The notes under the pieces: model-generated
Database searches by the model: none
Told to the model about the DNA's origin: nothing
The model's input: the letters and a program-made list of their open reading frames with translations, nothing else
Position numbers and translations under genes: made by a program
Source of the DNA: a virus
Lineage: Duplodnaviria; Caudoviricetes
IMG/VR virus record: IMGVR_UViG_3300005365_000022
Coordinates: 24,171 to 88,170 of that record
Length of the DNA stretch: 64,000 bases
Strand: one strand, 5' to 3'
Shown here: positions 2,790 through 29,062 of the stretch, in pieces
How the letters are laid out: every line of letters starts with the position of its first letter
Position numbering within the stretch: position 1 is the first letter of the stretch

Positions 2790-2990
2790 CGCGTCGCGGA
2801 TCACGTACCGGTGGCTTGCCCCGCACCGGCGCCGCAGCTCAGCCAGGAACGGCGCTCCGCTGGCCGGCTGAACCGGCCACGATGCCACCTCGGCCTCCAT
2901 CTCGCGATCGCTGTACTCGGCCGTGCCGCCATCGAACCTGGCGAGCTCTACCAGGTGATCGGCGTCCTCGACGAAGTAGAGGATCGTCAT
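2787..2990 (-). CDS. Candidate immunity protein for the MuF-kinase
   Basis: 67 aa, ATGA-coupled to the MuF-kinase stop; function inferred from position only. Confidence 0.4.
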   Translation of the reverse strand: MTILYFVEDADHLVELARFDGGTAEYSDREMEAEVASWPVQPASGAPFLAELRRRCGASHRYVIRDA

Positions 2991-5341
2991 GGCGAACCAT
3001 CCGCGATGGCGTCTGCCGCGGCCCGGCCGGCATCCGAGATTCGGTCGCGCGCGGTGAGGCTCGGCTGCGCCAGAAAGCGCTCCTGGTCGCTCTGCCCCAT
3101 CTGGTCGAAGCGCTGCGGCCTACCGCCCATGGTGACGTGCCCGGGAACCGCCAGCACCGAGGGCTGCTCCTTGAGCAGCGTGGCGCGGTACATCGCGTGT
3201 CGGACGGACTCGTCATCTAGGCCGCGCCGTCGCAAAGTGGCCGCCAGATCGGCCAGGTCGAGGTCTCGAATGCGCGCCTCGGTGGTCGGCAGCAACCCCA
3301 TGCCCACGAACGGCTTGCTCGTGGCGACGGGCTGCTGGATTCCGGCGCGAGACGACGGGAACGCCTGACCGTTGTCGATGGCCACCACGGCCCCGCCTTT
3401 CTTGCGCAGGAAGTTCTCCGGGTGACGATCGCGGTTCCCGGTGACGAAGTCGAGCAGGCGCATCTGCTCGGCGGACTCGCGGTCGATCTTGGTCGCCGAC
3501 CATCCCGGCCGAGCTCGCACGAACGCCTGCACGGACCCCTCGCCGCCTTCGTGGCGGCGGACCGTGGTGGGCGGAACGACGTCGATCCCCATGAGCCGAG
3601 CCACATCGTAGGTGGCCGCCTCGCGCAGGTGCATGGTGCCCGGCTGGATCCCGGTTGGCAGTTCGTCGGCTGCCTCTCCGGACGTCGGCTTCCACACGGC
3701 AGATCCGCCGCCGCGGAACCTGACAACCTTCGACGCGTTGACGCCACCGCCGAGGTCCTTGGTGCTAGTGATCTCGGCGTGCAGCGCGCGCACCGCGGCG
3801 TCCTCGACATCCGGACGCGGCCCGCCGCCGATGCCTGGGGCCGGCCCGCGCTCGCCGCCCTTCGCGAGATGGCCGGCGGGGACCTCAGGCGTCTGCCGCC
3901 ACTGCACGGGGATCGGCTCGTCGAGGTCGGCTGCGGCGTTGAGCCGGGCGGCGTCCGCTGCGCCATTCACGACGAGGTTGTTGCGCGGCGTGACCCCGAT
4001 CTGCACCGGCTGCTCGAGCCCGTCGGCGACCTCCTGGTACGCGCGCTCAGCCCGCTCGAGGTCGGCCTCGTAACCAGTGGGCTCGTACCAGCCGTGGTCG
4101 GCGATCGCCTGCGGGTCGGCCGCCGGGGTGCTGGCCGGGGCGGTGAGATCTCCGTGCTCCGGGATCTCACCGGCCGGGATCTCAGGTGAGATCTCGGCTG
4201 TAACCTTGGGCGACTCGAAGCCGATCGGCAGTGGGCCCGCGCGCTCGGTGTCGGCCTCATCTCCGGCCTGATCGCCCTGGGATTCCTCGGCGGTGGGAGA
4301 CTGGAATCCGATCCCGGTAGGCGCTGGAGATCCCGCCTCGTCGTCCGATGAGATCTCGGCCTGAGATCCCCGGGATCTCATCCACGCCGCGTTAGTCCGC
4401 TGCGCCGCCGTCTCGGTGACCGGCACCCGCCGGCCGTCCTCCCATCGCCAGCCGGGGACGCCCCAGTGGGCGCGCCAAGGCACGAGGACGGCGCGATCGT
4501 TGGGGCGGTTGGGCGGCGAGGTCCACTCGCGGCCGACCAAGGAGTCGCCGACCTCGTCGCCCTGGCGGTTGGTTGGCGGCTGCGTGAACGGCTCGCCGGG
4601 CGGCGCCACCTGGCCGTGCATTGCCTCCGAGTCGACGCCGACGCGGTCGTCCAGCGGCATGCCTTCGTCGCTCACGTGCTCGGTCCAGCGCGACCACATG
4701 TCGCCGTCGAGATCCTCGGCCTGCTCGTCGGCTGCGGCGCGCGCCGACCGGCCGGCGGCCCACGAAAGCTCGGTGCGTACTACACGCTCTGCGCGCCACC
4801 ACTGCATGTCGCCGACGTTCATGACCCGGTCGATCGCCTGCGTGTGCGTCTCCCCGAGCGAGAGCGACGCCCCGAGCTCCTCCTCCATGCGGCCGACGAG
4901 CTGCGCCCCGAACCTCGCCATCGAGGTCGCGTGCACGCGCATCAGGCTTGACACCTGCCCGTCTACCAGCCCGCGGAGCCTGGCGCTCTCGAGCAGCGGC
5001 AGCGAGATCACCGCCCCGCTGAAGTGCTTCTCGAGCGCGGCGGCGTCCTGCAGGAGCGTGCGCGCGGCGTGTACTCCGACCTTCGTGGCGCTCTCCTCGA
5101 CGGCGTCTCCGAGCGGGGCCTGCAGGCGCGCTAGCCCGAGCTTGACCTGCGCGAGCAGCCCGGTCAGCTGCTGGTGCGAGAACGTGCCGGCCGGCGTCGC
5201 CCGGATCCGCCGCGTGACGTCCTCGAGCATCCGGTCGTAGAGCGCCCGCACCGGAGCGATCCCCGTGCTTCGCACGAGGCGCTGCAGCTGGTCCTGCTGG
5301 TCCAGGATGATCGCGCGGTAGGCCGGGGGCAGCGCGGGCAC
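2987..5341 (-). CDS. MuF/SPP1 gp7-like minor head protein with C-terminal PI3/PI4-kinase/HipA-like kinase domain
   Basis: N-half has RAERVVRTE...W...DDRV...MHGQ...PPNRPNDR (MuF pattern); C-end has AVWKP, REAA, LDFVTGNRDRHPENFL and IDNG (atypical kinase motifs). Confidence 0.8.
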   Translation of the reverse strand: MPALPPAYRAIILDQQDQLQRLVRSTGIAPVRALYDRMLEDVTRRIRATPAGTFSHQQLTGLLAQVKLGLARLQAPLGDAVEESATKVGVHAARTLLQDAAALEKHFSGAVISLPLLESARLRGLVDGQVSSLMRVHATSMARFGAQLVGRMEEELGASLSLGETHTQAIDRVMNVGDMQWWRAERVVRTELSWAAGRSARAAADEQAEDLDGDMWSRWTEHVSDEGMPLDDRVGVDSEAMHGQVAPPGEPFTQPPTNRQGDEVGDSLVGREWTSPPNRPNDRAVLVPWRAHWGVPGWRWEDGRRVPVTETAAQRTNAAWMRSRGSQAEISSDDEAGSPAPTGIGFQSPTAEESQGDQAGDEADTERAGPLPIGFESPKVTAEISPEIPAGEIPEHGDLTAPASTPAADPQAIADHGWYEPTGYEADLERAERAYQEVADGLEQPVQIGVTPRNNLVVNGAADAARLNAAADLDEPIPVQWRQTPEVPAGHLAKGGERGPAPGIGGGPRPDVEDAAVRALHAEITSTKDLGGGVNASKVVRFRGGGSAVWKPTSGEAADELPTGIQPGTMHLREAATYDVARLMGIDVVPPTTVRRHEGGEGSVQAFVRARPGWSATKIDRESAEQMRLLDFVTGNRDRHPENFLRKKGGAVVAIDNGQAFPSSRAGIQQPVATSKPFVGMGLLPTTEARIRDLDLADLAATLRRRGLDDESVRHAMYRATLLKEQPSVLAVPGHVTMGGRPQRFDQMGQSDQERFLAQPSLTARDRISDAGRAAADAIADGSP

Positions 5342-5350
5342 GACGCCAGC

Positions 5351-11472: not shown

Positions 11473-13188
11473 TTAACCGGGTTTTGGTAGCGCCGCGTGA
11501 CCGGCGCTCGGCGGCAGATGTCCTGGCGGCGCAGCCCCCGCGCCGCCAGGCGCCGGTGATGGCTTTCCGGCACTGAGGAGCGCCTCGGTGAGCGCGTCAT
11601 CGGCGGCGCCGCCCTCGGCCTGCAGGCGCTTGAGCGCCGCGGCTGGGTCGTCGATCCCGAAGAAGGGCGCCACGTATTCCACGGCGCTCTGCTGGTCGAT
11701 CACGCGAGCGGAGCGCGCCGAGGCGATCGCCGTGGCCGCGGCCGTGGCGTCGGTGGGCCCGCGCTTGATCCACTCCGGCCACGCCAGCTCGACTAAGTCG
11801 TCGGAGAACGCGGCGAGCCAGGCCGGCATGTCGCGCGCGACCGGCGACTGCCCGGCTCGCTGGGCCGGGGGCAGCACGGTCATCGGGACCGCGGCGAGCC
11901 CTGTTGTCGGATCGAGCGCGGGCGAGCGGCGCAGCGCGAGGAACGCGCGGACGATCTTCGCGATGAGCGGCTTGGCGCCGTTCTCGCCGTACTGCTCGCG
12001 GAAGATGTCGCCCCGCTCGTGCATCGGAGAGTACCGGCGCTCCACTTCGGTCGCCGTCATCGTCCCCTCGCTGAGCTCGCTGTCGAGCACGACCTGGACG
12101 ACCTCGAGCGCGTTCCGCCGGTGCACGTCGGCGACCTTCAGCGCGGCCTCGACCCCGGAACCGGTCATCTCGACGTACTGCGCCGATCCCCCCTTCTCGG
12201 CCTTGAGAGCGTTGCGGGAGCCCTTCTTCACTGAGTCCTGCTTCCATTCGTCGCTGAAGATCCCAAGCGTCGGGTCGGCGTTCTCGACCGCGCCCTGGTC
12301 GGCCTGCGAGAGCAGCCGGTCGATCGCCTCCTGCGCCTCGAAGATCCCGAGGCAGTCGGGGTCGCCGTCGACGTCATCGGTCGGCGTGTTGCGGATCCAG
12401 ACCGCGGGGCACTCACCGAACCCGTGGGGCCCGCCCGTTGCCGGCGTCCAGCTCGGTTCGTCGCCATCGCCCACGAGCTCGGCGCGGTACACGATATCCT
12501 GCTGCGCGTCGATCGTCCGCCGGTACCAGTACCAGACCTGCTCCATCACGCCGTCGGGACGCCGCTGCTCGCGGGGGTACTGGTAGCGGATCTCGAGCGC
12601 CGAGATCTCCCCGGTCTCCGGGTCGATGAACTCCGGGGTGCACCACCGGGCATCGTGCACCGAGATCAGCGGCTTGCCGCCGCGGAACCTGAACGACATC
12701 GCAACCGACCCGATGGCGCCGCCGAGCGTGCGCGCGTTTGCCATCTTGATCCACAGCCGGCCCGCGCTGATCAGCCCCTCCACCCACGACTGCAGATCGG
12801 GGTCCCCGGCGACGCGGGCCTGGGGGTGCATTTTCGAGCTGAACAGCAGCCCGGTGAACCGGTTCACGACGCTGCGGGTGAGGTGATACGGCGCCCGCGG
12901 CATCCGCAGGTCAAGCGGCATCTCGTCGTACATGCCGGACGGGTCCCAGAACCCCATCGGCAGCACCGTCGAGCGAGCTATCGTCTCCCGCTCGATCGGC
13001 GACAACACCTTCCTGCCCGACCAGTCGACGGTGCGCGAATCGTACTGCGTGCAGCAGTAGAAGCTGTAGTACCGGTTGAGCTCCAGCTGCCGCGGCGACA
13101 TCCCCATGCGGGCGATCCGCGCCTGCTGGATGTCATGCATCACCATCCCGCCGGCGTAGGCGGTCAGGGGGCTGTAGGTCGGCGCCAC
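11473..13188 (-). CDS. Phage portal protein
   Basis: 571 aa directly downstream of TerL; HGFGECPAVWIRN, S..G.AL(K) and SQQSA(V)-like portal patterns. Confidence 0.8.
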   Translation of the reverse strand: MAPTYSPLTAYAGGMVMHDIQQARIARMGMSPRQLELNRYYSFYCCTQYDSRTVDWSGRKVLSPIERETIARSTVLPMGFWDPSGMYDEMPLDLRMPRAPYHLTRSVVNRFTGLLFSSKMHPQARVAGDPDLQSWVEGLISAGRLWIKMANARTLGGAIGSVAMSFRFRGGKPLISVHDARWCTPEFIDPETGEISALEIRYQYPREQRRPDGVMEQVWYWYRRTIDAQQDIVYRAELVGDGDEPSWTPATGGPHGFGECPAVWIRNTPTDDVDGDPDCLGIFEAQEAIDRLLSQADQGAVENADPTLGIFSDEWKQDSVKKGSRNALKAEKGGSAQYVEMTGSGVEAALKVADVHRRNALEVVQVVLDSELSEGTMTATEVERRYSPMHERGDIFREQYGENGAKPLIAKIVRAFLALRRSPALDPTTGLAAVPMTVLPPAQRAGQSPVARDMPAWLAAFSDDLVELAWPEWIKRGPTDATAAATAIASARSARVIDQQSAVEYVAPFFGIDDPAAALKRLQAEGGAADDALTEALLSAGKPSPAPGGAGAAPPGHLPPSAGHAALPKPG

Positions 13189-13227
13189 GGTGCGCAGGAT
13201 CGCGGACCGGCGCGTCGGCGGGCAACG

Positions 13228-13461
13228 TCAGCGCGTCCTGGTTGGATCTGGCGGCCGAATCCCGACAATCCGCTTGCCCTTGTTGGCGGCGACCACGAGC
13301 TGGTCGAGCTCCTGATCGAGGATCCACCGAATCCTCGCCTCGCCATCCGGAACCGGATCGCCGTTTACGATCGGCACCTGGTGCGTAGCGCAGGCGGACA
13401 CGATGACGTCGCCGTATTCCTCGCTGCGCTCCCAGACGCATCCGCAGGTCGTGGTGCTCAC
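13228..13461 (-). CDS. Hypothetical protein
   Basis: 77 aa, overlaps the TerL stop (GTGA). Confidence 0.45.
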   Translation of the reverse strand: MSTTTCGCVWERSEEYGDVIVSACATHQVPIVNGDPVPDGEARIRWILDQELDQLVVAANKGKRIVGIRPPDPTRTR

Positions 13462-16130
13462 GTTCGCCTCTTTCGCTTCTGGTAGCCGGCGCCGCTCGTC
13501 GCGAATCGTGCACCTTCGCGGGCCAGCCAGCAGTTGTGGACTGCGATCCCCTCAGCCACGTACGACTCGTCCTCCTCCACGTGGAGATTGAAGACCTGAC
13601 CGGTGTACGGGTGGCTCCTGATGCTGGATAGCCGCACTGCCACCCCTCCGACCTGGGGGATCGAGCAGGAGTTGGTGCGCGTCCTCAGCGGCGCCCATCT
13701 GTCTCCCCAGCGTTGTAGTTCTTCCGGTCGCGCATCGAGTAGCAGTTCGGTCGAGTCCGTAGCTGACAGCGCGAGCTCCTGCGCCGGCTTGTGACCGCAA
13801 GGGATGCCCTGGAACGTTCCTGTTTGATCGAATGGCTGCACCGACGTGCCAAGCCCGAGACGCCACAGGAATTGTTGCATCTGGTATATCAGCGAGCGCG
13901 AGATGCTGACGCCTCGAAGGCGAGGCGTTCCATCCCGATAGCCAAGACAGCCATCACCGACGAACCATCCGCGCACAATCTGTGACCCGGTTAGCGCGGG
14001 CAACGCCATCCACCCCCATGGCAGCGCCTTGTGTTCCTTCTTGCCAAACGGCCTGAACTCGTTGGCCGCGCGCTTCGATTGCACGCTGACGGTCATCCCG
14101 CCGTGGCCGGCCCGCGTGTAGATGCTCGTCTTGGCCCCCCAACGCTTCATTGCATGATCCCGGACGAAGTCGGCCAGGTAGGTCTCTTTCCGGTGAAACG
14201 CGAAGTTCAATTGGTGATCTCCGGCCCAGCCTTCCGCGAGATATAGCCCGGCCAGAAATGCATAGTCGTCGTCTACTGTCGGGGCGATCCATGGCCACGG
14301 TGACACTGGAGCAAGGACAAAGTCGCCTGCCATCTTCCGTCCGGCGCGCAGATCTTCTGCGGGGACAAAGTCCCACGAGGCGCGATCGGGGACGAGTCTA
14401 TTGGTTCTCTCACGCGTCGTCATTCGCGGCAGCGCGCGGTACACCGGATGTTCTCCGGTGACCTGGAGCGTCCGCATGCCCTTAGGCTTGACCTCGAAGA
14501 CGTCGCCCTCGTAGGGCCGCGACATCGTCTGGCTGACCGGACGCCAGCGCCCGCGGTGCGTCAGCACCTGATCGCCGATAACGACGTTCTCGATCGGAAC
14601 CAGACCACGCGCCGTGGTGATCAATTGCCCAGGGGTCAAACAGGCGATGAGCCGATCCCCGGTGTGGCTCTTGGGGTCGTACCGCAGCATCTCACCGATC
14701 AGCGCCCTGACCTCCGGGTGCATGTCTGCCATGATTCCCTTGGTCTCCCCGCCGCGGTTCGGGATAACCCACTTACCGGCGCTGAACTCGATCGCGAGAG
14801 ACTCGATACCGAAGCTCGGGTCGTACTTGTTCTTCCCGGTGTAGAATGCGCGCGTCGGTACAGCGCTCTTCTCATTGACAAACTGCCGGATAAAAAGCTG
14901 GGCTCCGTTGCTCTCTACGATTACCTGTGAGTTGTAGCGGCGGTTCGCGTCAATGATTCGATCGACGAGCTCGGGGCCAGGCCAGCGCCCGGACTCCACG
15001 TCCAACAGCGATCGCACGCCGTCCTTCTCGCGCACGGCGATCGTCACGATCGCGGATAGGTCGGTGCGCTTCTTCCGATGCCGCTTGAGCTCGGCCGCCG
15101 CGATGTCAACGCCGGTCACCGTGCGCCAGCCTGGCGGGACCGCAGCGAGCGAGTACGCCAGATCGACGCCGTCGCCGTTGGCCAGCGCCTTGTTGATGTA
15201 CGCCTCCTTGAAGCGCCGATCGGCGTCAGCGACCGGATCGCAGAACATCGAGCGCCGGCTCTCGATCGGTCCGCGGTTCTCGATCTCGGCCTCGATGCGC
15301 TCCTCGGGCCACATCTCGGGCCAGGCGAGATTCCCCGCGGCGTCGCGCACCGGGAACTTCTTCGAGAACGTGCGCCGCTCGGAGGCGTAGCGGTGCATGG
15401 CGTCGTCTGGGTGCCAAGCGTTGCCGACGAACCAGATCCGGCCGCGCGTCGTCCGCCGGCCCTCGATGGTGCTCTTGAGCCAGCCGTAGTACTTATCGCG
15501 CTGCTCCTCAGTGTGCGTGTTCTCCGCCGTGAGGTAGTCGTCGACGATGATCAGGTCGTAGCGGCCACCGAGCACGTTGCCGCCGAATCCGCACGCCTGG
15601 ACCGTCGGGTCTTTCGCGCCGATCGAAGAGCGCTTGACGATGAATGCCTCGTTGGTCCACAGCCCGCTGCTGTCGCTCTTGTCGGGCTGGATCCCGGGGA
15701 ACACCAGCCGGAACTCGACGCTGCGCTCGATGTAGCCCTTGAGCGACCGGACGATCTTCCGCGCCGGCCCCGCGGCGCTCGACAGGATCAGGATCCGGAT
15801 GTTGGGGTTCTTGCCGATCTCCCAAAGCACGCGGCCTACCGACACCTCCGAGGTCTTCGCGAGCTCGGTCGCCGACCACAGCACCACGCGATCGTGCTCG
15901 GTGAGGATGTCGTGCCACTCCTCGTGGATCGTCGCGAGCCGCACCGGCTCGTTGGTGTCCTCGGTGCGCAGCACGCTCTGGCAGAACACCGCGGGGTCCC
16001 GCTGGGCGGTCTCGGCGAGCCGCGCCAGCGCCGGCCCGAGCTGCTGAGCCTCGTCGATCAGCCGGCGGTGATCGCGTCGATCAGTTCGCGTCACCGGGCT
16101 CCACGCCGAGTTCGGGCTCTGCGTCTTCAT
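13458..16130 (-). CDS. terL: Terminase large subunit containing an intein
   Basis: ATPase half (LAKTS, Walker B LIIVDD, GNAWHPDD); RNaseH-like nuclease (TGVDIA, VESNGAQ, HTGDRLIA/CW); intein at residues 497-866. Confidence 0.9.
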   Translation of the reverse strand: MKTQSPNSAWSPVTRTDRRDHRRLIDEAQQLGPALARLAETAQRDPAVFCQSVLRTEDTNEPVRLATIHEEWHDILTEHDRVVLWSATELAKTSEVSVGRVLWEIGKNPNIRILILSSAAGPARKIVRSLKGYIERSVEFRLVFPGIQPDKSDSSGLWTNEAFIVKRSSIGAKDPTVQACGFGGNVLGGRYDLIIVDDYLTAENTHTEEQRDKYYGWLKSTIEGRRTTRGRIWFVGNAWHPDDAMHRYASERRTFSKKFPVRDAAGNLAWPEMWPEERIEAEIENRGPIESRRSMFCDPVADADRRFKEAYINKALANGDGVDLAYSLAAVPPGWRTVTGVDIAAAELKRHRKKRTDLSAIVTIAVREKDGVRSLLDVESGRWPGPELVDRIIDANRRYNSQVIVESNGAQLFIRQFVNEKSAVPTRAFYTGKNKYDPSFGIESLAIEFSAGKWVIPNRGGETKGIMADMHPEVRALIGEMLRYDPKSHTGDRLIACLTPGQLITTARGLVPIENVVIGDQVLTHRGRWRPVSQTMSRPYEGDVFEVKPKGMRTLQVTGEHPVYRALPRMTTRERTNRLVPDRASWDFVPAEDLRAGRKMAGDFVLAPVSPWPWIAPTVDDDYAFLAGLYLAEGWAGDHQLNFAFHRKETYLADFVRDHAMKRWGAKTSIYTRAGHGGMTVSVQSKRAANEFRPFGKKEHKALPWGWMALPALTGSQIVRGWFVGDGCLGYRDGTPRLRGVSISRSLIYQMQQFLWRLGLGTSVQPFDQTGTFQGIPCGHKPAQELALSATDSTELLLDARPEELQRWGDRWAPLRTRTNSCSIPQVGGVAVRLSSIRSHPYTGQVFNLHVEEDESYVAEGIAVHNCWLAREGARFATSGAGYQKRKRRT
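13533..14642 (-). mobile_element. Intein (370 aa) with LAGLIDADG homing endonuclease
   Basis: Block A CLTPGQLITTARG; block B VTGEHP; LAGLYLAEG and RGWFVGDG dodecapeptides; VFNLHV..ESYVAEGIAVHN followed by Cys+1. Confidence 0.92.
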
Positions 16131-16740
16131 CGTCTTCGACGTCCGACGAGGTCGCGTCGATCACCGGCGGCGGCTGCGGGGCCGACGTGAGCGCCCCGCG
16201 GCGCACGGCCATATCGGCGAGCGCGGCGGCGTGCTGGATGAGCCGCAGCGCCTCCTCTGGAGTCGCGACGGTCGAGCTCGCCGGCAGCAACGTACTCGCG
16301 TCGAACGCGTAGGCCCCATCGATGCGCGCGATCTTGTCGAGCGCGGCCACGCCGGCGGTCAGGAATCCGGCCGCCTTGGCCGTGAGCTTGGGGTCGTAGG
16401 ACAGCTCGAGCGCGCGCCGCGCGAACAACGTGAGCATCCCGCGGGTGCGCGCCTGCTTGCGAGACTTCGGCGCCGTGACCTCGCCGTCGATGCGCTCCAG
16501 CGCCTTCTCGAGGATGATTCGAGCGCCCGCCCGGTTGGTCTTCCAGTCCTTGTCGGGGGTCTCCGTCATCATCCACCCGACGACCTGGGCCGGCGTGTAT
16601 CCGCGATCGAGCATGTCGCGGGCGCCCTCGACACGCTGCTCTGGCGTGCTCTTGGGGCGCGGCGCCGGCTTCGCGCTGACCTCGGCCGGCTGCGGCGCAG
16701 GCATGTCTGGCTGCGCGGGCTTGGGATCCCCTTCCGCCAC
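16081..16740 (-). CDS. Probable terminase small subunit
   Basis: Immediately upstream of and overlapping TerL; HTH-like N-half, helical middle, acidic tail. Confidence 0.55.
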   Translation of the reverse strand: MAEGDPKPAQPDMPAPQPAEVSAKPAPRPKSTPEQRVEGARDMLDRGYTPAQVVGWMMTETPDKDWKTNRAGARIILEKALERIDGEVTAPKSRKQARTRGMLTLFARRALELSYDPKLTAKAAGFLTAGVAALDKIARIDGAYAFDASTLLPASSTVATPEEALRLIQHAAALADMAVRRGALTSAPQPPPVIDATSSDVEDDEDAEPELGVEPGDAN

Positions 16741-17315: not shown

Positions 17316-17702
17316 TCATAGGTCGTCAGCCGTGAGCTCCCCAGGCGGGCGCCACCCGCGGCCACGCAGCGCCCCGCTCGCGATCCACTCGACGAGGGGC
17401 GGCAGGTCCAGCGCCAGCGTGCCGATCGGGTACCGCGGGTCGAGCACCGGGTAGAGCTGCACCGGCGGGTCTCCGAGGTCTGCGGCGTCGCGGATCCCGA
17501 AGTACGATAGGTGGCCGGCGCGCGCCATGCCCGCGAGGATCTCCGCGACCGCGACCTCGCGCCCGGCAACCAGATCCGGCGTGACCGGTCGGCCGGCGCG
17601 CTCGCGCACCGCGTGGACAGCAACCCACTGCAGCAGGACGCCAAGGCAATGCCGCTCTCCCCGCTGCCGCTCCCGGATGGCCTTCTGCGCCGCGAGCTTC
17701 AT
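17316..17702 (-). CDS. Hypothetical protein
   Basis: 128 aa; preceded by a 42 aa ATGA-coupled ORF (17700-17828). Confidence 0.45.
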   Translation of the reverse strand: MKLAAQKAIRERQRGERHCLGVLLQWVAVHAVRERAGRPVTPDLVAGREVAVAEILAGMARAGHLSYFGIRDAADLGDPPVQLYPVLDPRYPIGTLALDLPPLVEWIASGALRGRGWRPPGELTADDL

Positions 17703-17827
17703 CTCAAAAGGACCCCTCTTACCACCAGCGCAGTCCGCTCACGCTCGGCGATCTCCGAGGGCTGTTCGACATTACATGGGTCATGTGTTGACTGGTCGAA
17801 CTGCCGAGGGGCTCGGACGTTACCCAT

Positions 17828-17870
17828 GCCGGGTAGGATTACCGTAATACGCAATCCACCAGGCGTCAAG
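17828..17870 (-). promoter_or_regulatory. Repeated promoter/operator copy upstream of the packaging operon
   Basis: TTGACG-N17-TACGGT with GCGTATTACG box. Confidence 0.65.
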
Positions 17871-17875
17871 CTATC

Positions 17876-18952
17876 GGGTGGTACGGGCTCGAAACGTCGC
17901 GTCGTACGGCAGGGAGCGGAATAGGCTAGGCATGTCGCGTGGAGTCGTCTCGTGTGGTGACGGGTTGCTACGCGTTGGCATGTCGCTCCGGTCTACTATG
18001 CGTTCGCTGTTGGGATGGGGTGTTCTGAGTAGTCGCTCCGTACGGGCGGGTGACGACGTGGGACGGCTCGTCGCAACAGCACGGATGGGCGCGGTTTGGG
18101 TAGTCGCATCGCAGCTGCGCCTGCATGGCTCGGCATGTCGCTCGGGCACGGCCAGGTGCACGTTGGGAAGTCGCGAGGCATCGGAGCGGCAGGCGCGGGT
18201 GTTGGGCTGGCCAGTCGCCACGGTCTGCGATGGTCCGGTTTGTCGCACTGCTCGCGCTCGGTGTGCCCTGGCCAGTCGCCATGAGGCGGTCCGGTCCGGT
18301 TTGTCGCGCTGTTCTGTCGTGCCTTGACCTTGGTAGTCGCTATGGGGATGCTGTAGCACGGTCCGTCGCGATGCAGCGGCACGGTCAGTTCTGGGCTGGT
18401 CCGTCGCGATGCAGGGGTATAGAAGGGCCGGCATTGTCTCGCTGTCAGGTGGTGACCAGGCATGACCAGTCGCTCGGGCGGGGCAGGGAGCGGAAGGGCA
18501 GGCATTGTCGCGTCGAGACGGCTTGGTCGGATCAGTCGCCTCGCGTAGAACCGTCGTTGCTCGGGCTTGTCGCCTTGCTCGTAACGGTCTCGGGTTGGGA
18601 AGTCGCCGGGCCCAGGAAAGGACGGGCCGGAATAGTCACGATGACGCGAAGTGATCGCGAAGGATAGGCAAGTCGCAGCGCACGCGAGACGATTTCGATC
18701 GGCCAGACAAGTCGTGCAGCCTTGACATAGGTAGTCGCCCAGCATGGATGAGCGAAGGATAGTCGCTGTGGGCGGATCAGACTGGAAAGGACACGTCGCT
18801 ATGTTGCTTGTCGCACTGCGCGGCGAGGACACGGATAGAGGACACGGATAGTCGCCACGGCGAGGCCGGCCGCCGTTACGAGTAGGGTAGTCACGCAGCA
18901 TCCGATCGACTTGTCACCAGGGCCTCGCGGCTCACCCGGCCTGCCCCGTCAC
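17876..18952. repeat. Non-CRISPR periodic array, about 30 units of GTCRC + NNN + n x (G/GG-led pentamer); putative guide-RNA array
   Basis: GTCGC or a variant at 17896, 17934, 17982, 18032, 18070, 18103, 18137, 18170, 18214, 18242, 18275, 18303, 18336, 18365, 18403, 18436, 18469, 18507, 18535, 18569, 18602, 18635, 18672, 18711, 18734, 18762, 18795, 18810, 18851, 18890, 18913. 20 of 30 intervals are 5n+3 (23/28/33/38/48) and 6 more are 5n+4 (hand count). Confidence 0.85.
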
Positions 18953-18955
18953 GGG

Positions 18956-19741
18956 CTACGCTGCGGCGGTGTCGCTGACGCCGAGATCCTCCATCGACAG
19001 GATATCGAACTTGCCGATCCCCTGTGAGCGAGACGCGCCGATCCCGTGCTCTGCGGCGTGCAGCAGCGACGCGGCGAGCGATTCGTCTGGTAGCTTGCCT
19101 TCGATCTCCTTCGCGATGGCGATCTCGAACTCGATGATCGGCTGCTTCAGGTACTCGTTGCGCTTGATCGACGCGAGCTTCTGCCCGCGGATTTCGCTGT
19201 GACACACCGACGTCGCAATGCCGTCGGGAGCAGCGCCGAGATAAATATAATCGCGCTCAACGGGCGCAGAGCCCTCCGGCGGCACGCTGTACACGAACAG
19301 CGCCTCGGCGATCGACACGCGGGATCCGAGGTGGGCCTGGCGAAACCCGAGAACCGACCAGTTTTCCTTGAGCATCGCCTTCAGGTTGTTGGTCGGGAAC
19401 CAGATCCCATCCTTTCCCGGGCGCCGGTGGAACTGGCAAATCCCCTCCTCGGATACCCGCTCCGCGGCCTCTGCGCGCGCCGTCGGGTCGTCCGGGATGG
19501 CCTCGATCTGGTCGCCGAGTCCTCGAGCGGCGAGCATCGCGTTCGCTGCGTCGAGGTGGCGCGGCTGACCGCCGTACAGGAGCTCGCGGAGCTGGATCTT
19601 GATGCGGATCCTCCTCCACTTGTTGGAGGCCACCTGCTTCAGCAGGTTGTCCCACTGCATGCGGTTCTTGGGCTGGATGATCGCTGGTGTCTTCGGAGAT
19701 GGGGCGTCGGGGGCGTCCGGCGCTTTAGGCTTGCGTGCCAT
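18956..19741 (-). CDS. Stand-alone RAMP-superfamily (Cas7-like) protein
   Basis: 261 aa from ATG 19741 after an AAGGA RBS; N-terminal strand RIRIKIQLRELLYGG; IWFPTNNLKAMLKE (cf. RAMP iPgSslKGalR); C-terminal G-rich loop HGIGASRSQGIGKF. Confidence 0.8.
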   Translation of the reverse strand: MARKPKAPDAPDAPSPKTPAIIQPKNRMQWDNLLKQVASNKWRRIRIKIQLRELLYGGQPRHLDAANAMLAARGLGDQIEAIPDDPTARAEAAERVSEEGICQFHRRPGKDGIWFPTNNLKAMLKENWSVLGFRQAHLGSRVSIAEALFVYSVPPEGSAPVERDYIYLGAAPDGIATSVCHSEIRGQKLASIKRNEYLKQPIIEFEIAIAKEIEGKLPDESLAASLLHAAEHGIGASRSQGIGKFDILSMEDLGVSDTAAA

Positions 19742-19780: not shown

Positions 19781-19845
19781 GCATACTTGCGTATTACGCA
19801 TACGCGTGTCAACTACGAACGCGTAATACATCTACCGTCAACGCG
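19781..19845 (-). promoter_or_regulatory. Promoter/operator upstream of the RAMP gene
   Basis: Two minus-strand TTGAC hexamers and two copies of the CGTAATAC/GTATTACG box. Confidence 0.6.
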
Positions 19846-22479: not shown

Positions 22480-22555
22480 TAGCGCGAGCTGGATTTGAAC
22501 CAGCGACCTTCGGGTTATGAGCCCGACGGGAACGACCAGGCTTCCCTACCGCGCG
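22480..22555 (-). tRNA. tRNA-Met(CAT) with initiator (fMet) features
   Basis: CGCGCGG..GGGA/TCCC D arm, TCGGG-CTCATAA-CCCGA anticodon arm (three G:C pairs), GGTTCAAATCC T arm, C1xU72 mismatch, A73. Confidence 0.9.
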
Positions 22556-27403: not shown

Positions 27404-27475
27404 TGCGCCAAGCAGGAATCGAACCTGCGACCCGCCGGGTGTAATCCGGCTGCTCTACCGCTGAGCTACTGGCGC
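27404..27475 (-). tRNA. tRNA-Val(TAC)
   Basis: GCGCCAG-TA-GCTCAGCGGTAGAGC-A-GCCGG-ATTACAC-CCGGC-GGGTC-GCAGGTTCGATTCCTGC-TTGGCGC-A; no encoded CCA. Confidence 0.85.
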
Positions 27476-27864: not shown

Positions 27865-28368
27865 GCAAGTGCGGGTGGGTGCGGTCTCATCGGCCGGCTC
27901 CGCCGCACCATGCGTCGCCTTCCGCACTCTACCGCCCCGCGGTCGCCGCATCGGCACCACCTCAACCACCTTCCTGCGCAGCGTCATCCTCGTCACCATG
28001 TCAGTGGTCCCATTTGAGATCCCGTCCCAGAAGACGAGCGCAGCGTCTCCGACCTCGGCCATCCGGCTGTTCCTCACCTTGGGCGCCATGAACTTGCCGT
28101 AGCGCCGCACGTCGGCATCGGAGATCGGCTCCGGGTGAACCGCGAGGCCCCTCGCCTTGGCCCAGCGCTCGCCACAGGCGTCCACCCCGCCGCCCGGAGA
28201 CTGGCCGCTCACCACCAGCTCGACCACCTCGCGCACGCGTGAGATCTCTGGCGGGATCTCTCCCCAGATCGGCATTCGCAGGACCTCGGCGTCGATCTGC
28301 TCATCGGTCGGGTGAAGCGACCGACTGCCGGCGATGATGAGCTTGACCACCGACGGCGAGCGTCTCAC
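27862..28368 (-). CDS. SLOG-superfamily (DUF2493/YspA-like) protein
   Basis: KLIIAGSRS..VVSG...GVDACGERWA..RN..MAEVGDAALVFWDG.SNGT. Confidence 0.75.
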   Translation of the reverse strand: MRRSPSVVKLIIAGSRSLHPTDEQIDAEVLRMPIWGEIPPEISRVREVVELVVSGQSPGGGVDACGERWAKARGLAVHPEPISDADVRRYGKFMAPKVRNSRMAEVGDAALVFWDGISNGTTDMVTRMTLRRKVVEVVPMRRPRGGRVRKATHGAAEPADETAPTRTC

Positions 28369-28396
28369 GTGACCCTGACGCGCGGCGCCGACTGGA

Positions 28397-28996
28397 TCAG
28401 GTCATGATCATGTTGATGACGCCACCATCGACGGTCAGCACCCCAATCGCGCACGCCCGCCAGAGCACGACATCCACGGTGGCAACGCGGTCTCCGGTGG
28501 CCGCGGCGAGCCTGGCGCAGAGCGCGTCGACCGTCTCTCCATCCGCCTGAGCCAGCCGAACGAGCCAGCGGTCGGGCTTGGCGCAGTCGACGCCCAGGTT
28601 CTTGGCGAGGTGGTAACGCGTGATCTTGACGATCCAGGGCAGCGACTCGCACCACTCGAGCACGCGCGCCGGGTCATCGCAGAGCTCGCGGAACTCAGCC
28701 AGCCGTAGGGCGCGCCGGTCCCACATCAAGCCGATCGCAAGCGCCTTGCCGGCGTGACCAAACGCTGCCGGATAGAGCGGCAGGTCGGCTACGAGCCGCG
28801 GCCAGACCCGGTCCATGATCGCGCGGGCGGCGCGGTGGTGCATTCCGCTATTCACCACGACCAAGGCGTACTCACGCACCAGATCTTCGGCGTTTACAGG
28901 AGCTCGGACGTTCTGCGCCCACTCCCAGTCCTCTACGTAGCCGAGCGCGGCCAGCCGGGCGCGCGTCTCGCGGTACAGATCAGGCGTGAGCTTCAT
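28397..28996 (-). CDS. HhH-GPD DNA glycosylase-like protein
   Basis: LVVVNSG...ESLPWIVKITRYHLAKNLG..AKPDRWLVR...VDVVLWR. Confidence 0.6.
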   Translation of the reverse strand: MKLTPDLYRETRARLAALGYVEDWEWAQNVRAPVNAEDLVREYALVVVNSGMHHRAARAIMDRVWPRLVADLPLYPAAFGHAGKALAIGLMWDRRALRLAEFRELCDDPARVLEWCESLPWIVKITRYHLAKNLGVDCAKPDRWLVRLAQADGETVDALCARLAAATGDRVATVDVVLWRACAIGVLTVDGGVINMIMT

Positions 28997-29002
28997 GGCG
29001 AT

Positions 29003-29062
29003 GAGATCTCCACTAGTTGGAGAGATCCCTGCGTGAGATCCCCGATGAGATCCCGGGATCTC
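29003..29062. repeat. Cluster of GAGATCYC motifs ending in the 16 bp palindrome GAGATCCCGGGATCTC
   Basis: Copies at 29003, 29022, 29035, 29047 and 29055; perfect palindrome again at 29195-29210; variant at 4363-4379. Confidence 0.7.

What the first reader, a model, noticed from the sequence alone, without database searches (positions are those of the whole stretch)
17876..18952. Array grammar: GTCRC anchor + 3 nt + n pentamers, unit lengths quantised at 5n+3
Seen (hand count): 20 of 30 anchor-to-anchor intervals are 23, 28, 33, 38 or 48 nt, and 6 more are one base longer. In 11 fully parsed units, 50 of 54 pentamers begin with G and 29 of 54 begin with GG. Examples: GTCGC GAT GCAGC GGCAC GGTCA GTTCT GGGCT GGTCC; GTCGC TCG GGCGG GGCAG GGAGC GGAAG GGCAG GCATT. 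The last two bases of each pentamer vary freely. A period of 5 is incompatible with codon structure and the units are not copies of one another, so this looks like an information-bearing ncRNA rather than a satellite.
Basis: seen in the sequence. Interest (0 to 1): 0.9.

Follow-up and report, generated by a model that had tools for sequence, protein, structure and literature searches.

The report
VIPR-type guide array beside Cas7-like gene
This 1.1-kb non-coding stretch of a phage genome is most likely the guide-RNA array of a VIPR system, a CRISPR-like weapon first described in 2026 preprints. Here it takes a divergent form: about 32 short guides written in five-base steps, separated by a three-base slip.

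Summary
The region holds 30 strict GTCRC anchors (32 with two degenerate ones), all on one strand. A G recurs every 5 nt, phase-locked to the anchors. Unit lengths are quantised at 5n+3 (P about 6e-6; shuffles never come near). No codon periodicity is present.

The gene next door (18956-19741, minus strand) folds as a lone Cas7/Csm3-like RAMP protein. Relatives of this protein in 77 other viral and metagenomic loci are almost always flanked by the same kind of array. Phages whose flanks are 82-93% identical carry partly or wholly different units.

This matches VIPR systems (Vipr protein plus pentamer-repeat vrRNAs; bioRxiv 10.64898/2026.04.26.720920 and .720927). This scan has also noted VIPR-type loci about 143 times on other DNA.

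The locus differs from the characterised type II system in four ways:
- Only one base per pentamer is firmly fixed.
- Units are short (4-9 pentamers) and have no structured tail.
- A GTC/GAC slip punctuates the units.
- The G lattice lies antisense to the protein gene.

Which strand is the RNA, and what the reading code is, remain open. No target was found.

The parts
17876..18955 (.). Pentamer-lattice array of about 32 units. On the + strand each unit reads GTC + GCNNN + (G[G]NNN)n, ending GGNHH. On the - strand (sense to the RAMP gene) it reads GYGAC + (NNN[C]C)n + NNN. Units hold 4-9 pentamers, most often 6 (33 nt).
18956..19741 (-). Gene for a lone Cas7/Csm3-like RAMP protein (261 aa; an upstream ATG at 19831 would give 291 aa). 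Candidate Vipr-type effector.
   Evidence: AF2 model with pLDDT 82. VIA Z 12.2 to Csm3 6ae2_B and 12.1 to type VII Cas7 8yhd_A. Foldseek top hits are all Cmr/Csm/type VII Cas7 at E about 1e-7. C-terminal G-rich loop, nearly invariant in 40 homologues. No Pfam, PHROG or NCBIfam family.
18910..18955 (.). Array end next to the gene. It is conserved with L047 and is 94% identical in L051/L052, unlike the array interior. The first sense-strand anchor (GTGAC) starts 3 nt after the stop codon of the RAMP gene.
   Evidence: sequence
18436..18442 (+). Degenerate anchor GTCTCGC, which splits the 66-nt interval into 33 + 33.
   Evidence: Sequence; unit list
18711..18715 (+). Degenerate anchor GTCGT, which splits the 62-nt interval into 39 + 23.
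   Evidence: Sequence; unit list
17703..17875 (.). Spacer of about 170 bp between the array and the next gene (start codon at 17702, - strand). It is the only room for a + strand promoter of the array. No sigma-70-like promoter or clear terminator was found.
17316..17702 (-). First gene after the array (128 aa, no known family). It is conserved with L047 (84% aa) and is followed by the packaging genes. Context only; there is no evidence that it is an accessory (vap) gene.

Best explanation
The array and the adjacent RAMP gene form a divergent VIPR-type RNA-guided system of an uncultured, 67% GC tailed phage.

The array is transcribed as a long precursor and cut at or near the GTC/GAC punctuation into guides of about 23-48 nt. 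One RAMP protomer binds each 5-nt step and clamps the fixed base (G on one strand, C on the other). The free bases of successive steps together read a double-stranded DNA target in a gapped way. In the tested VIPR clade this silences genes of rival phages or satellites. Each unit is a separate guide, so the phage carries about 32 of them.

Shown here:
- the grammar of the array;
- the Cas7-like fold of the neighbouring protein;
- the family-wide linkage of this protein with such arrays;
- cassette-like turnover of units between relatives.

Taken from the preprints for another clade: filament assembly with one protomer per repeat, gapped DNA recognition, and silencing.

Inferred only: transcription, the strand, processing at the anchors, and the code. 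My odds for the RNA strand are about 60% for the strand sense to the RAMP gene (C lattice) and 40% for the G-lattice strand.
For: 1. The array statistics are far beyond chance and are unique in the genome.

2. The adjacent protein has a Cas7-like fold with a G-rich loop and a faint Csm4 match over that loop. No other cas gene was found among the neighbours scanned.

3. Linkage. 32 of 45 loci (43 viral plus two metagenome contigs) with relatives at 22-89% identity carry a lattice segment of at least 250 nt next to the gene. The controls gave 1 such segment in 190 kb. 18 of the 26 closer metagenomic loci scanned have it directly downstream; most of the other 8 end within about 400 nt of the gene. 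Across the family, 339 of 686 GTC[AG] intervals are 5n+3 (P 3e-66).

4. Hypervariability. In L047 the flanks are 82% identical, but the array cannot be aligned except for one unit. That array still has 45 units, 29 of them 5n+3. In L051/L052 the flanks are about 93% identical; about 12 units are shared in order and about 10 are private.

5. Literature. VIPR is a lone minimal RAMP plus vrRNAs of YNNGG pentamers. Variants with NNNGG, YNNNG and NNNNG repeats and 'staggered' arrays are mentioned. The systems are mostly phage-encoded, bind one protomer per repeat, and target dsDNA. An independent study recovered 5-nt-period arrays next to Vipr-like folds, including non-canonical fixed letters.

6. 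The SUSP1 reference locus shows the same lattice signal with my scan.
Against:
- Sequence similarity to the characterised Vipr family is marginal (hhalign E 0.002, probability 13.5%). A profile search of PDB sequences does not reach SUSP1 Vipr 36pp.
- The fixed motif is G(G)NNN, not GGY/NN.
- Units have 4-9 pentamers, not 9-16, and no tail of about 40 nt. No structure signal was found and there is no Rfam hit.
- The G lattice is antisense to the gene in every family locus, whereas it is sense in SUSP1.
- No accessory gene is conserved around this subclade.
Confidence: 0.8

Rival explanations
1. The array makes RNA that binds the RAMP protein, but the RNA does not act as a DNA-targeting guide. 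It could be a decoy or sponge against a rival's VIPR or CRISPR machinery. It could also be a C-rich untranslated leader that controls read-through into the packaging genes.
For: No target was found. The sense strand is C-rich and G-poor over 1 kb (GC skew about 0.2) and lies just upstream of the terminase operon. The protein is only remotely related to tested Vipr proteins.
Against: A decoy or leader would not need unit content that turns over between close relatives while the grammar is kept. Arrays lie in many different gene contexts across the family.
Confidence: 0.08
2. The array works as DNA. It would be a set of oriented binding sites for a packaging, replication or partition protein, comparable to the short-repeat arrays next to the terminal repeats of T7 (recalled from my own knowledge, not looked up).
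For: It lies about 1.7 kb upstream of the large terminase gene, in the same gene block. All sites share one orientation.
Against: The linked gene across 77 loci is the Cas7-like protein, not a terminase. Contexts differ widely. DNA-binding sites would conserve a motif, not a single base every 5 nt with free neighbours. Close relatives with near-identical packaging genes have different units.
Confidence: 0.05
3. The region is a decayed pentanucleotide satellite or a G-quadruplex-forming tract with no sequence information.
For: About half of the pentamers start with GG, so runs of GGNNN could form two-tetrad quadruplexes.
Against: Decay would erode all five positions alike. Here position 1 holds at 93% while positions 3-5 are at about 2 bits. 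The punctuation and the 5n+3 rule are conserved across proteins only 22-50% identical. Tandem Repeats Finder sees no satellite.
Confidence: 0.03
4. The 301-codon ORF 17996-18901 (minus strand) is a real gene.
For: It is an open frame of 301 codons. A gene caller also placed a 346-codon ORF over the array of L047.
Against: GC by codon position is flat at 0.64/0.64/0.65 and there is no period 3. The anchors fall in all three frames (intervals). The two array-spanning ORFs share no significant similarity (best blastp E 0.017 over 37 residues). Long spurious ORFs are usual at 67% GC.
Confidence: 0.01

Closest known systems
VIPR type II (Escherichia phage SUSP1, KT454805.2; Vipr structure PDB 36pp; bioRxiv 10.64898/2026.04.26.720920 and .720927)
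   Same: Both are phage-encoded. Both have a lone small RAMP protein with an RRM core, a G-rich loop and a thumb-like hairpin. Non-coding arrays with a strict 5-nt rhythm flank the gene, with fixed and hypervariable positions in each step. Several guides are present per locus.
   Different: SUSP1 has about 100-nt vrRNAs of 9-16 GGY/NN repeats. Each has a pseudoknotted tail of about 40 nt and its own upstream element, and the G lattice lies on the gene's strand. Here there are about 32 units of 4-9 pentamers. Only one base is firmly fixed, there is no tail, and 5-nt anchors with a 3-nt phase slip punctuate the units. The G lattice is antisense to the gene. The protein is 261 aa instead of 195 aa and is only marginally similar in sequence. 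In the low-confidence hhalign alignment of the G-loops, the Asp-Trp pair that holds G1 and G2 in SUSP1 Vipr aligns with Ala-Ser here.
Other VIPR types named in the preprint: 'staggered arrays with overlapping vrRNAs' and NNNGG/YNNNG/NNNNG repeats
   Same: Back-to-back guides without tails, in which the end of one marks the start of the next. Reduced fixed motif.
   Different: I could read only the text and legends, not the figures or tables. Whether this clade, its GTC/GAC slip and its strand arrangement are what the authors call staggered cannot be checked here. The preprint says that only the ribozyme-interspersed and single-guide architectures were confirmed by RNA sequencing.
Class 1 CRISPR backbone proteins (Csm3/Cmr4, type VII Cas7) with crRNA
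   Same: These are the best structural matches, Z 10-12 over residues 40-261. A protein filament measures the guide in fixed steps. On the gene's strand the anchor GCGAC equals the last five bases of the Thermus thermophilus repeat that ends ATTGCGAC. It is established knowledge, not tested here, that the last 8 nt of such repeats become the 5' handle of type III crRNAs. L010 uses ATTGCAAC.
   Different: The step is 5 nt, not 6. There are no 25-40-nt repeats, and no cas1, cas2, cas5, cas6, cas10 or other cas genes were detected near the gene. The anchor likeness covers only 5-8 bases and may be chance.
TIGR-Tas arrays
   Same: Phage-borne non-CRISPR arrays of short guides with an internal rhythm (mentioned).
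   Different: TIGR arrays have an 18-nt period and a Nop-domain effector. Here the period is 5 nt and the effector is a RAMP.

Membership tests
VIPR (broad sense) | Lone RAMP-fold protein (RRM core, G-rich loop, thumb) outside any CRISPR-Cas locus | tested here: met
   Model pLDDT 82. Z 12.2 to Csm3 and 12.1 to type VII Cas7. Foldseek E 1e-7. G-loop motif conserved. Long beta-hairpin at residues 174-199 in the model. No cas families among the neighbours.
VIPR (broad sense) | Tandem pentanucleotide repeats with fixed and hypervariable positions in the intergenic DNA next to the gene | tested here: met
   Lag-5 autocorrelation 0.28, z about 9. Position 1 is G in 93% and positions 3-5 carry about 2 bits. 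The same holds in 32 of 45 and 18 of 26 related loci.
VIPR (broad sense) | Detectable homology to characterised Vipr proteins (SUSP1 / X1U2U4 family) | tested here: inconclusive
   Profile-profile E 0.002, probability 13.5%, colinear over 132 columns. Single sequence E 0.15. The PDB sequence profile search does not reach 36pp.
VIPR (broad sense) | Predominantly encoded by phages or proviruses | tested here: met
   88-kb contig with large terminase and portal genes. Relatives lie on IMG/VR viral contigs.
VIPR (broad sense) | Array RNA is expressed and co-purifies with the protein | not testable with these tools
VIPR (broad sense) | Guides match rival mobile elements under a gapped (1-nt skip) rule | tested here: inconclusive
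   No enrichment over shuffled guides in 1 Mb of held sequence under seven rules. Three exact pattern scans of IMG/VR gave 0, 0 and 2 hits, the 2 being chance-level hits in low-GC contigs.
VIPR (broad sense) | Accessory gene (vap) next to vipr | tested here: inconclusive
   No neighbour is shared beyond the closest relatives. A gene of about 180 aa with no known family sits upstream of the RAMP gene in 22 distant loci, but not here.
VIPR type II (SUSP1-like) | GGY fixed trinucleotide alternating with NN | tested here: not met
   G 93%, G 48%, pyrimidine 55% at positions 1-3.
VIPR type II (SUSP1-like) | 9-16 repeats followed by a conserved structured 3' tail of about 40 nt | tested here: not met
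   4-9 pentamers per unit, anchors of 5 nt, no tail. No fold signal.
VIPR type II (SUSP1-like) | G lattice on the same strand as vipr | tested here: not met
   The C lattice is on the gene's strand in all family loci with an array. SUSP1 has the G lattice on the gene's strand.
CRISPR-Cas class 1 | Array of 25-40-nt direct repeats with spacers, plus cas5/6/8/10 or cas1-cas2 | tested here: not met
   No such repeats. No cas families near the gene.
Protein-coding gene (ORF 17996-18901) | Codon periodicity and GC3 excess typical of this genome | tested here: not met
   GC by codon position 0.64/0.64/0.65, against 0.65/0.45/0.84 for the neighbouring gene. Period-3 power about 0.

The most novel reading that the evidence does not exclude
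In this clade the guides are read from the strand that also encodes the RAMP protein, as one transcript with the gene. Each unit would be 5'-GYGAC-(NNN[C]C)n-NNN-3'.

The fixed letter would then be C, not the published G. Three bases per step would be free, so the reading code would differ from the published two-plus-one-skip rule. The 5-8-nt punctuation would act as a miniature CRISPR repeat or 5' handle that marks where one guide ends and the next begins.

That would make these arrays a single-transcript, multi-guide format intermediate between VIPR and CRISPR arrays.
Probability: 0.3. Interest if true: 0.65.

Novelty: new variant of a known kind. Interest (0 to 1): 0.4.

Why it matters
VIPR is a very recent class, and its code is established for one clade only. 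This locus and its roughly 77 relatives define a clade with a different scaffold letter pattern, very short tail-less guides, a conserved 3-nt phase slip and a fixed orientation opposite to the reference system.

If the strand and the code were determined, three things would follow:
- It would show how far the 'one protomer per five bases' principle can be varied.
- It would show whether guides can be packed 30-90 to an array without tails.
- It would show whether short punctuation marks foreshadow CRISPR repeats.

For annotation, the finding shows that the long ORFs called across such arrays in high-GC phages are spurious.

Tried and rejected
- Rfam scan of the whole window: only two tRNAs, no hammerhead or other family in the array.
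- Tandem Repeats Finder: only a 13-bp duplication inside the array.
- blastn of the array and tblastn of the RAMP protein against 50,697 phage records: nothing.
- Sigma-70 promoter and terminator scan around the array: nothing useful.
- Folding of both array ends: no better than shuffles.
- Pfam, PHROGs, NCBIfam and PADLOC on the neighbours: no accessory-gene candidate.
- Supplementary tables of the VIPR preprint are not held, so I could not check whether this clade is among its 667 systems.
- One context look-up (P0008) timed out.
- Target search, local: seven decoding rules against 1 Mb of held sequence gave no excess over shuffled guides. One perfect 14/14 match (unit 18365 in L036) is within chance at this GC content.
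- Target search, IMG/VR: the 9-pentamer unit at 17934 under the xNN rule gave 2 hits in 28% and 38% GC contigs, as many as chance predicts. An 11-pentamer unit of L047 gave 0 hits. A contiguous three-base reading of unit 17934 gave 0 hits.
- Substitutions in units shared with L051 number only 11, too few to test which positions are constrained.
- Terminator orientation as a strand test gave mixed results. Strong sense-oriented terminators stand exactly at the array ends in L043 and L032. An antisense-oriented one stands beside the upstream array of L006.
- I considered and dropped terminase-binding arrays, TRAP-like or Csr-like protein sponges, quadruplex tracts and TIGR arrays once the RAMP fold and the family-wide linkage were clear.

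Full report
**Setting.** The window is bases 24171-88170 of an 88,170-bp contig with 67% GC. It carries a large terminase gene with an intein (13458-16160, minus strand) and a portal gene (11473-13227). It has no close relative among 50,697 deposited phages. The region in question lies in a block of minus-strand genes. It sits between a 261-aa gene (18956-19741) and a 128-aa gene (17316-17702) that precedes the packaging genes.

Thirty GTC[AG]C sites lie between 17896 and 18948, all on the plus strand. GTCGC is six times denser here than elsewhere, and its complement GCGAC is absent. Seventeen of 29 intervals are 5n+3 (P 5.6e-6). With the two degenerate anchors at 18436 and 18711 the count becomes 20 of 31, with 6 more one base longer.

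Dinucleotide-preserving shuffles give 6.8 +/- 2.3 anchors, 20% of intervals at 5n+3, and a lag-5 G autocorrelation of 0.001 +/- 0.031 against the observed 0.281. In the whole contig only this locus shows the signal.

Aligned on the anchors, G stands at -5, -10, -15 and at +8, +18 and so on in 25-28 of 30 units. The two bases before an anchor are never G. The simplest description is a G every five bases, interrupted by one three-base step (GTC) at each anchor.

In 69 inner pentamers the first base is G in 93% and the second in 48%. The last three positions are at 1.93-1.98 bits. Units hold 4-9 pentamers, most often 6.

The region has no codon periodicity. The 301-codon ORF across it has flat GC at all codon positions.

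**The neighbouring protein.** The 261-aa product matches no Pfam, PHROG or NCBIfam family. It gives only a faint Csm4 match over its C-terminal glycine-rich loop. It has 90 metagenomic homologues.

An AlphaFold model built on 40 of them (pLDDT 82) matches Cas7-family backbone proteins and nothing else at the top:
- Csm3: Z 12.2, rmsd 3.3 over 154 residues.
- Type VII Cas7: Z 12.1.
- Cmr4, Cas7-11 domains and type IV Csf2: Z 10-11.
- Foldseek: E about 1e-7.

**Linkage of protein and array.** I fetched 43 viral loci encoding relatives at 22-46% identity, two contexts of closer homologues and 32 metagenomic loci at 41-97% identity.
- Of the first 45 loci, 32 have a segment of at least 250 nt with lag-5 autocorrelation above 0.22 right beside the gene.
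- 190 kb of control DNA gave one such segment.
- 18 of the 26 closer metagenomic loci scanned have the array directly after the stop codon; most of the other 8 end within about 400 nt of the gene.
- The commonest 5-mer in these arrays is almost always GTCGG, GTCGC, GTCGA or GTCAG.
- 339 of 686 anchor intervals are 5n+3 (P 3e-66).

The grammar therefore belongs to the protein family, not to this phage alone.

**Turnover.** L047 encodes a protein 89% identical, with flanks 82% identical at the DNA level. Its array has 45 units that cannot be aligned to ours except for one unit. It still obeys 5n+3 in 29 of 45 intervals. L051 and L052 (proteins 96-97% identical, flanks about 93%) share about 12 units with the window in the same order, and each side has about 10 private ones. 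This is cassette-like gain and loss of units under a fixed grammar, as expected for a repertoire of guides.

**Comparison with the literature.** Full-text search found four 2026 preprints.
- The first (10.64898/2026.04.26.720920) defines VIPR systems. A minimal RAMP protein, Vipr, is encoded mostly by phages and flanked by non-coding DNA. That DNA yields vrRNAs of 9-16 YNNGG repeats, in which GGY is fixed and NN is hypervariable, plus a structured 3' tail. The NN pairs read double-stranded DNA with one skipped base per step. Natural targets are rival satellites and prophages. Seven types are named, with variant repeats (NNNGG, YNNNG, NNNNG), 'staggered arrays with overlapping vrRNAs' and ribozyme-interspersed arrays.
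- The second gives cryo-EM structures. One protomer binds per repeat, and G1, G2 and Y3 are held by the G-loop, the thumb and helix 1.
- The third (10.64898/2026.10.15.759431) concerns competition between a phage and a satellite. A term search of it found nothing on array processing.
- The fourth recovers 5-nt-period arrays next to Vipr-like folds from entropy patterns, including non-canonical fixed letters.

My lattice scan picks out the SUSP1 reference locus (KT454805.2, genes at 28031-29061) cleanly. The finding is therefore a VIPR-type locus, and the class is not new. This scan has about 143 earlier notes on VIPR-like loci in other genomes.

**Differences from the characterised type.**
- Sequence similarity to the SUSP1 family is marginal (E 0.002, probability 13.5%).
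- In that low-confidence alignment, the Asp-Trp pair of the SUSP1 G-loop that holds G1 and G2 aligns with Ala-Ser here. This would fit the weaker second G and the missing pyrimidine, but it is only suggestive.
- Units are short, there is no tail, and no hammerhead or other Rfam family is present.
- The 3-nt slip is conserved family-wide. It may be what the preprint calls staggered arrays, but I could not see its figures or tables.

**The strand problem.** In SUSP1 the G lattice is on the strand of vipr. In this family the C lattice is on the gene's strand in every locus with an array, whether the array is upstream or downstream.

Evidence that the sense strand is the RNA:
- Arrays start 0-3 nt after the stop codon in about ten loci, including the window.
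- In L028 the array runs up to the ribosome-binding site of the gene.
- In L043 and L032, strong intrinsic terminators (-27.7 and -25.7 kcal/mol, with T runs) stand exactly at the distal end of the array in the sense orientation.
- L002 carries a second, canonical Vipr-like gene with GGYNN arrays on the gene strand. Our type's C-lattice array is squeezed between its own gene and one of those canonical arrays.
- On the sense strand the anchor reads GCGAC (ATTGCAAC in L010, GTGAC in L028). This recalls the 3' end of CRISPR repeats such as ...ATTGCGAC of Thermus thermophilus.

Evidence that the antisense strand is the RNA:
- Every vrRNA tested so far has G as the fixed letter.
- L006 has an antisense-oriented terminator beside its upstream array.

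I put the odds at about 60:40 for the sense strand.

**Targets.** I decoded units under seven rules and searched 1 Mb of held sequence. This gave no excess over shuffled guides. Exact pattern scans of IMG/VR with the longest units gave nothing beyond chance. This says little, because natural targets usually tolerate mismatches and the host is unknown.

**Verdict.** The class is known since 2026. This locus is a divergent variant whose strand, processing and code are open and directly testable.

Noticed in passing
window 13458-16160 (-): The large terminase gene carries an intein (Hint and LAGLIDADG domains at residues 506-876). The same arrangement is present in L047.
   Followed up: partly
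L002 3020-4900: One viral contig has two RAMP genes in tandem. The first is a canonical Vipr-like gene (3147-3722) flanked by textbook GGYNN arrays on its own strand. It is followed by a relative of the window's protein (3959-4621) with a GCGAC-punctuated C-lattice array, and then by another canonical array.
   Followed up: partly
L035 4226-7300: An array of about 3 kb with 74 GTCGA anchors, 65 of 96 GTC[AG] intervals being 5n+3. It is the largest of this family seen here.
   Followed up: no
L008, L013, L016, L033 and 18 other loci, directly upstream of the RAMP gene: A conserved gene of about 180 aa with no Pfam family sits upstream of the RAMP gene in 22 distant loci. It is a candidate accessory (vap-like) gene. 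It is absent from the window's own subclade.
   Followed up: partly
window 18825-18860: A 13-bp tandem duplication (GAGGACACGGATA, 2.1 copies) inside one unit, a sign of local slippage within the array.
   Followed up: no
window 2987-5350 (-): A 787-aa protein with a PI3/PI4-kinase-like domain at residues 624-673.
   Followed up: no
window 22480-22555 and 27404-27475 (-): Two tRNA genes in the phage genome.
   Followed up: no
L047 1609-2649; window 17996-18901: Gene callers and ORF lists place 300-350-codon ORFs over these arrays in high-GC phages. These are artefacts of the composition.
   Followed up: yes
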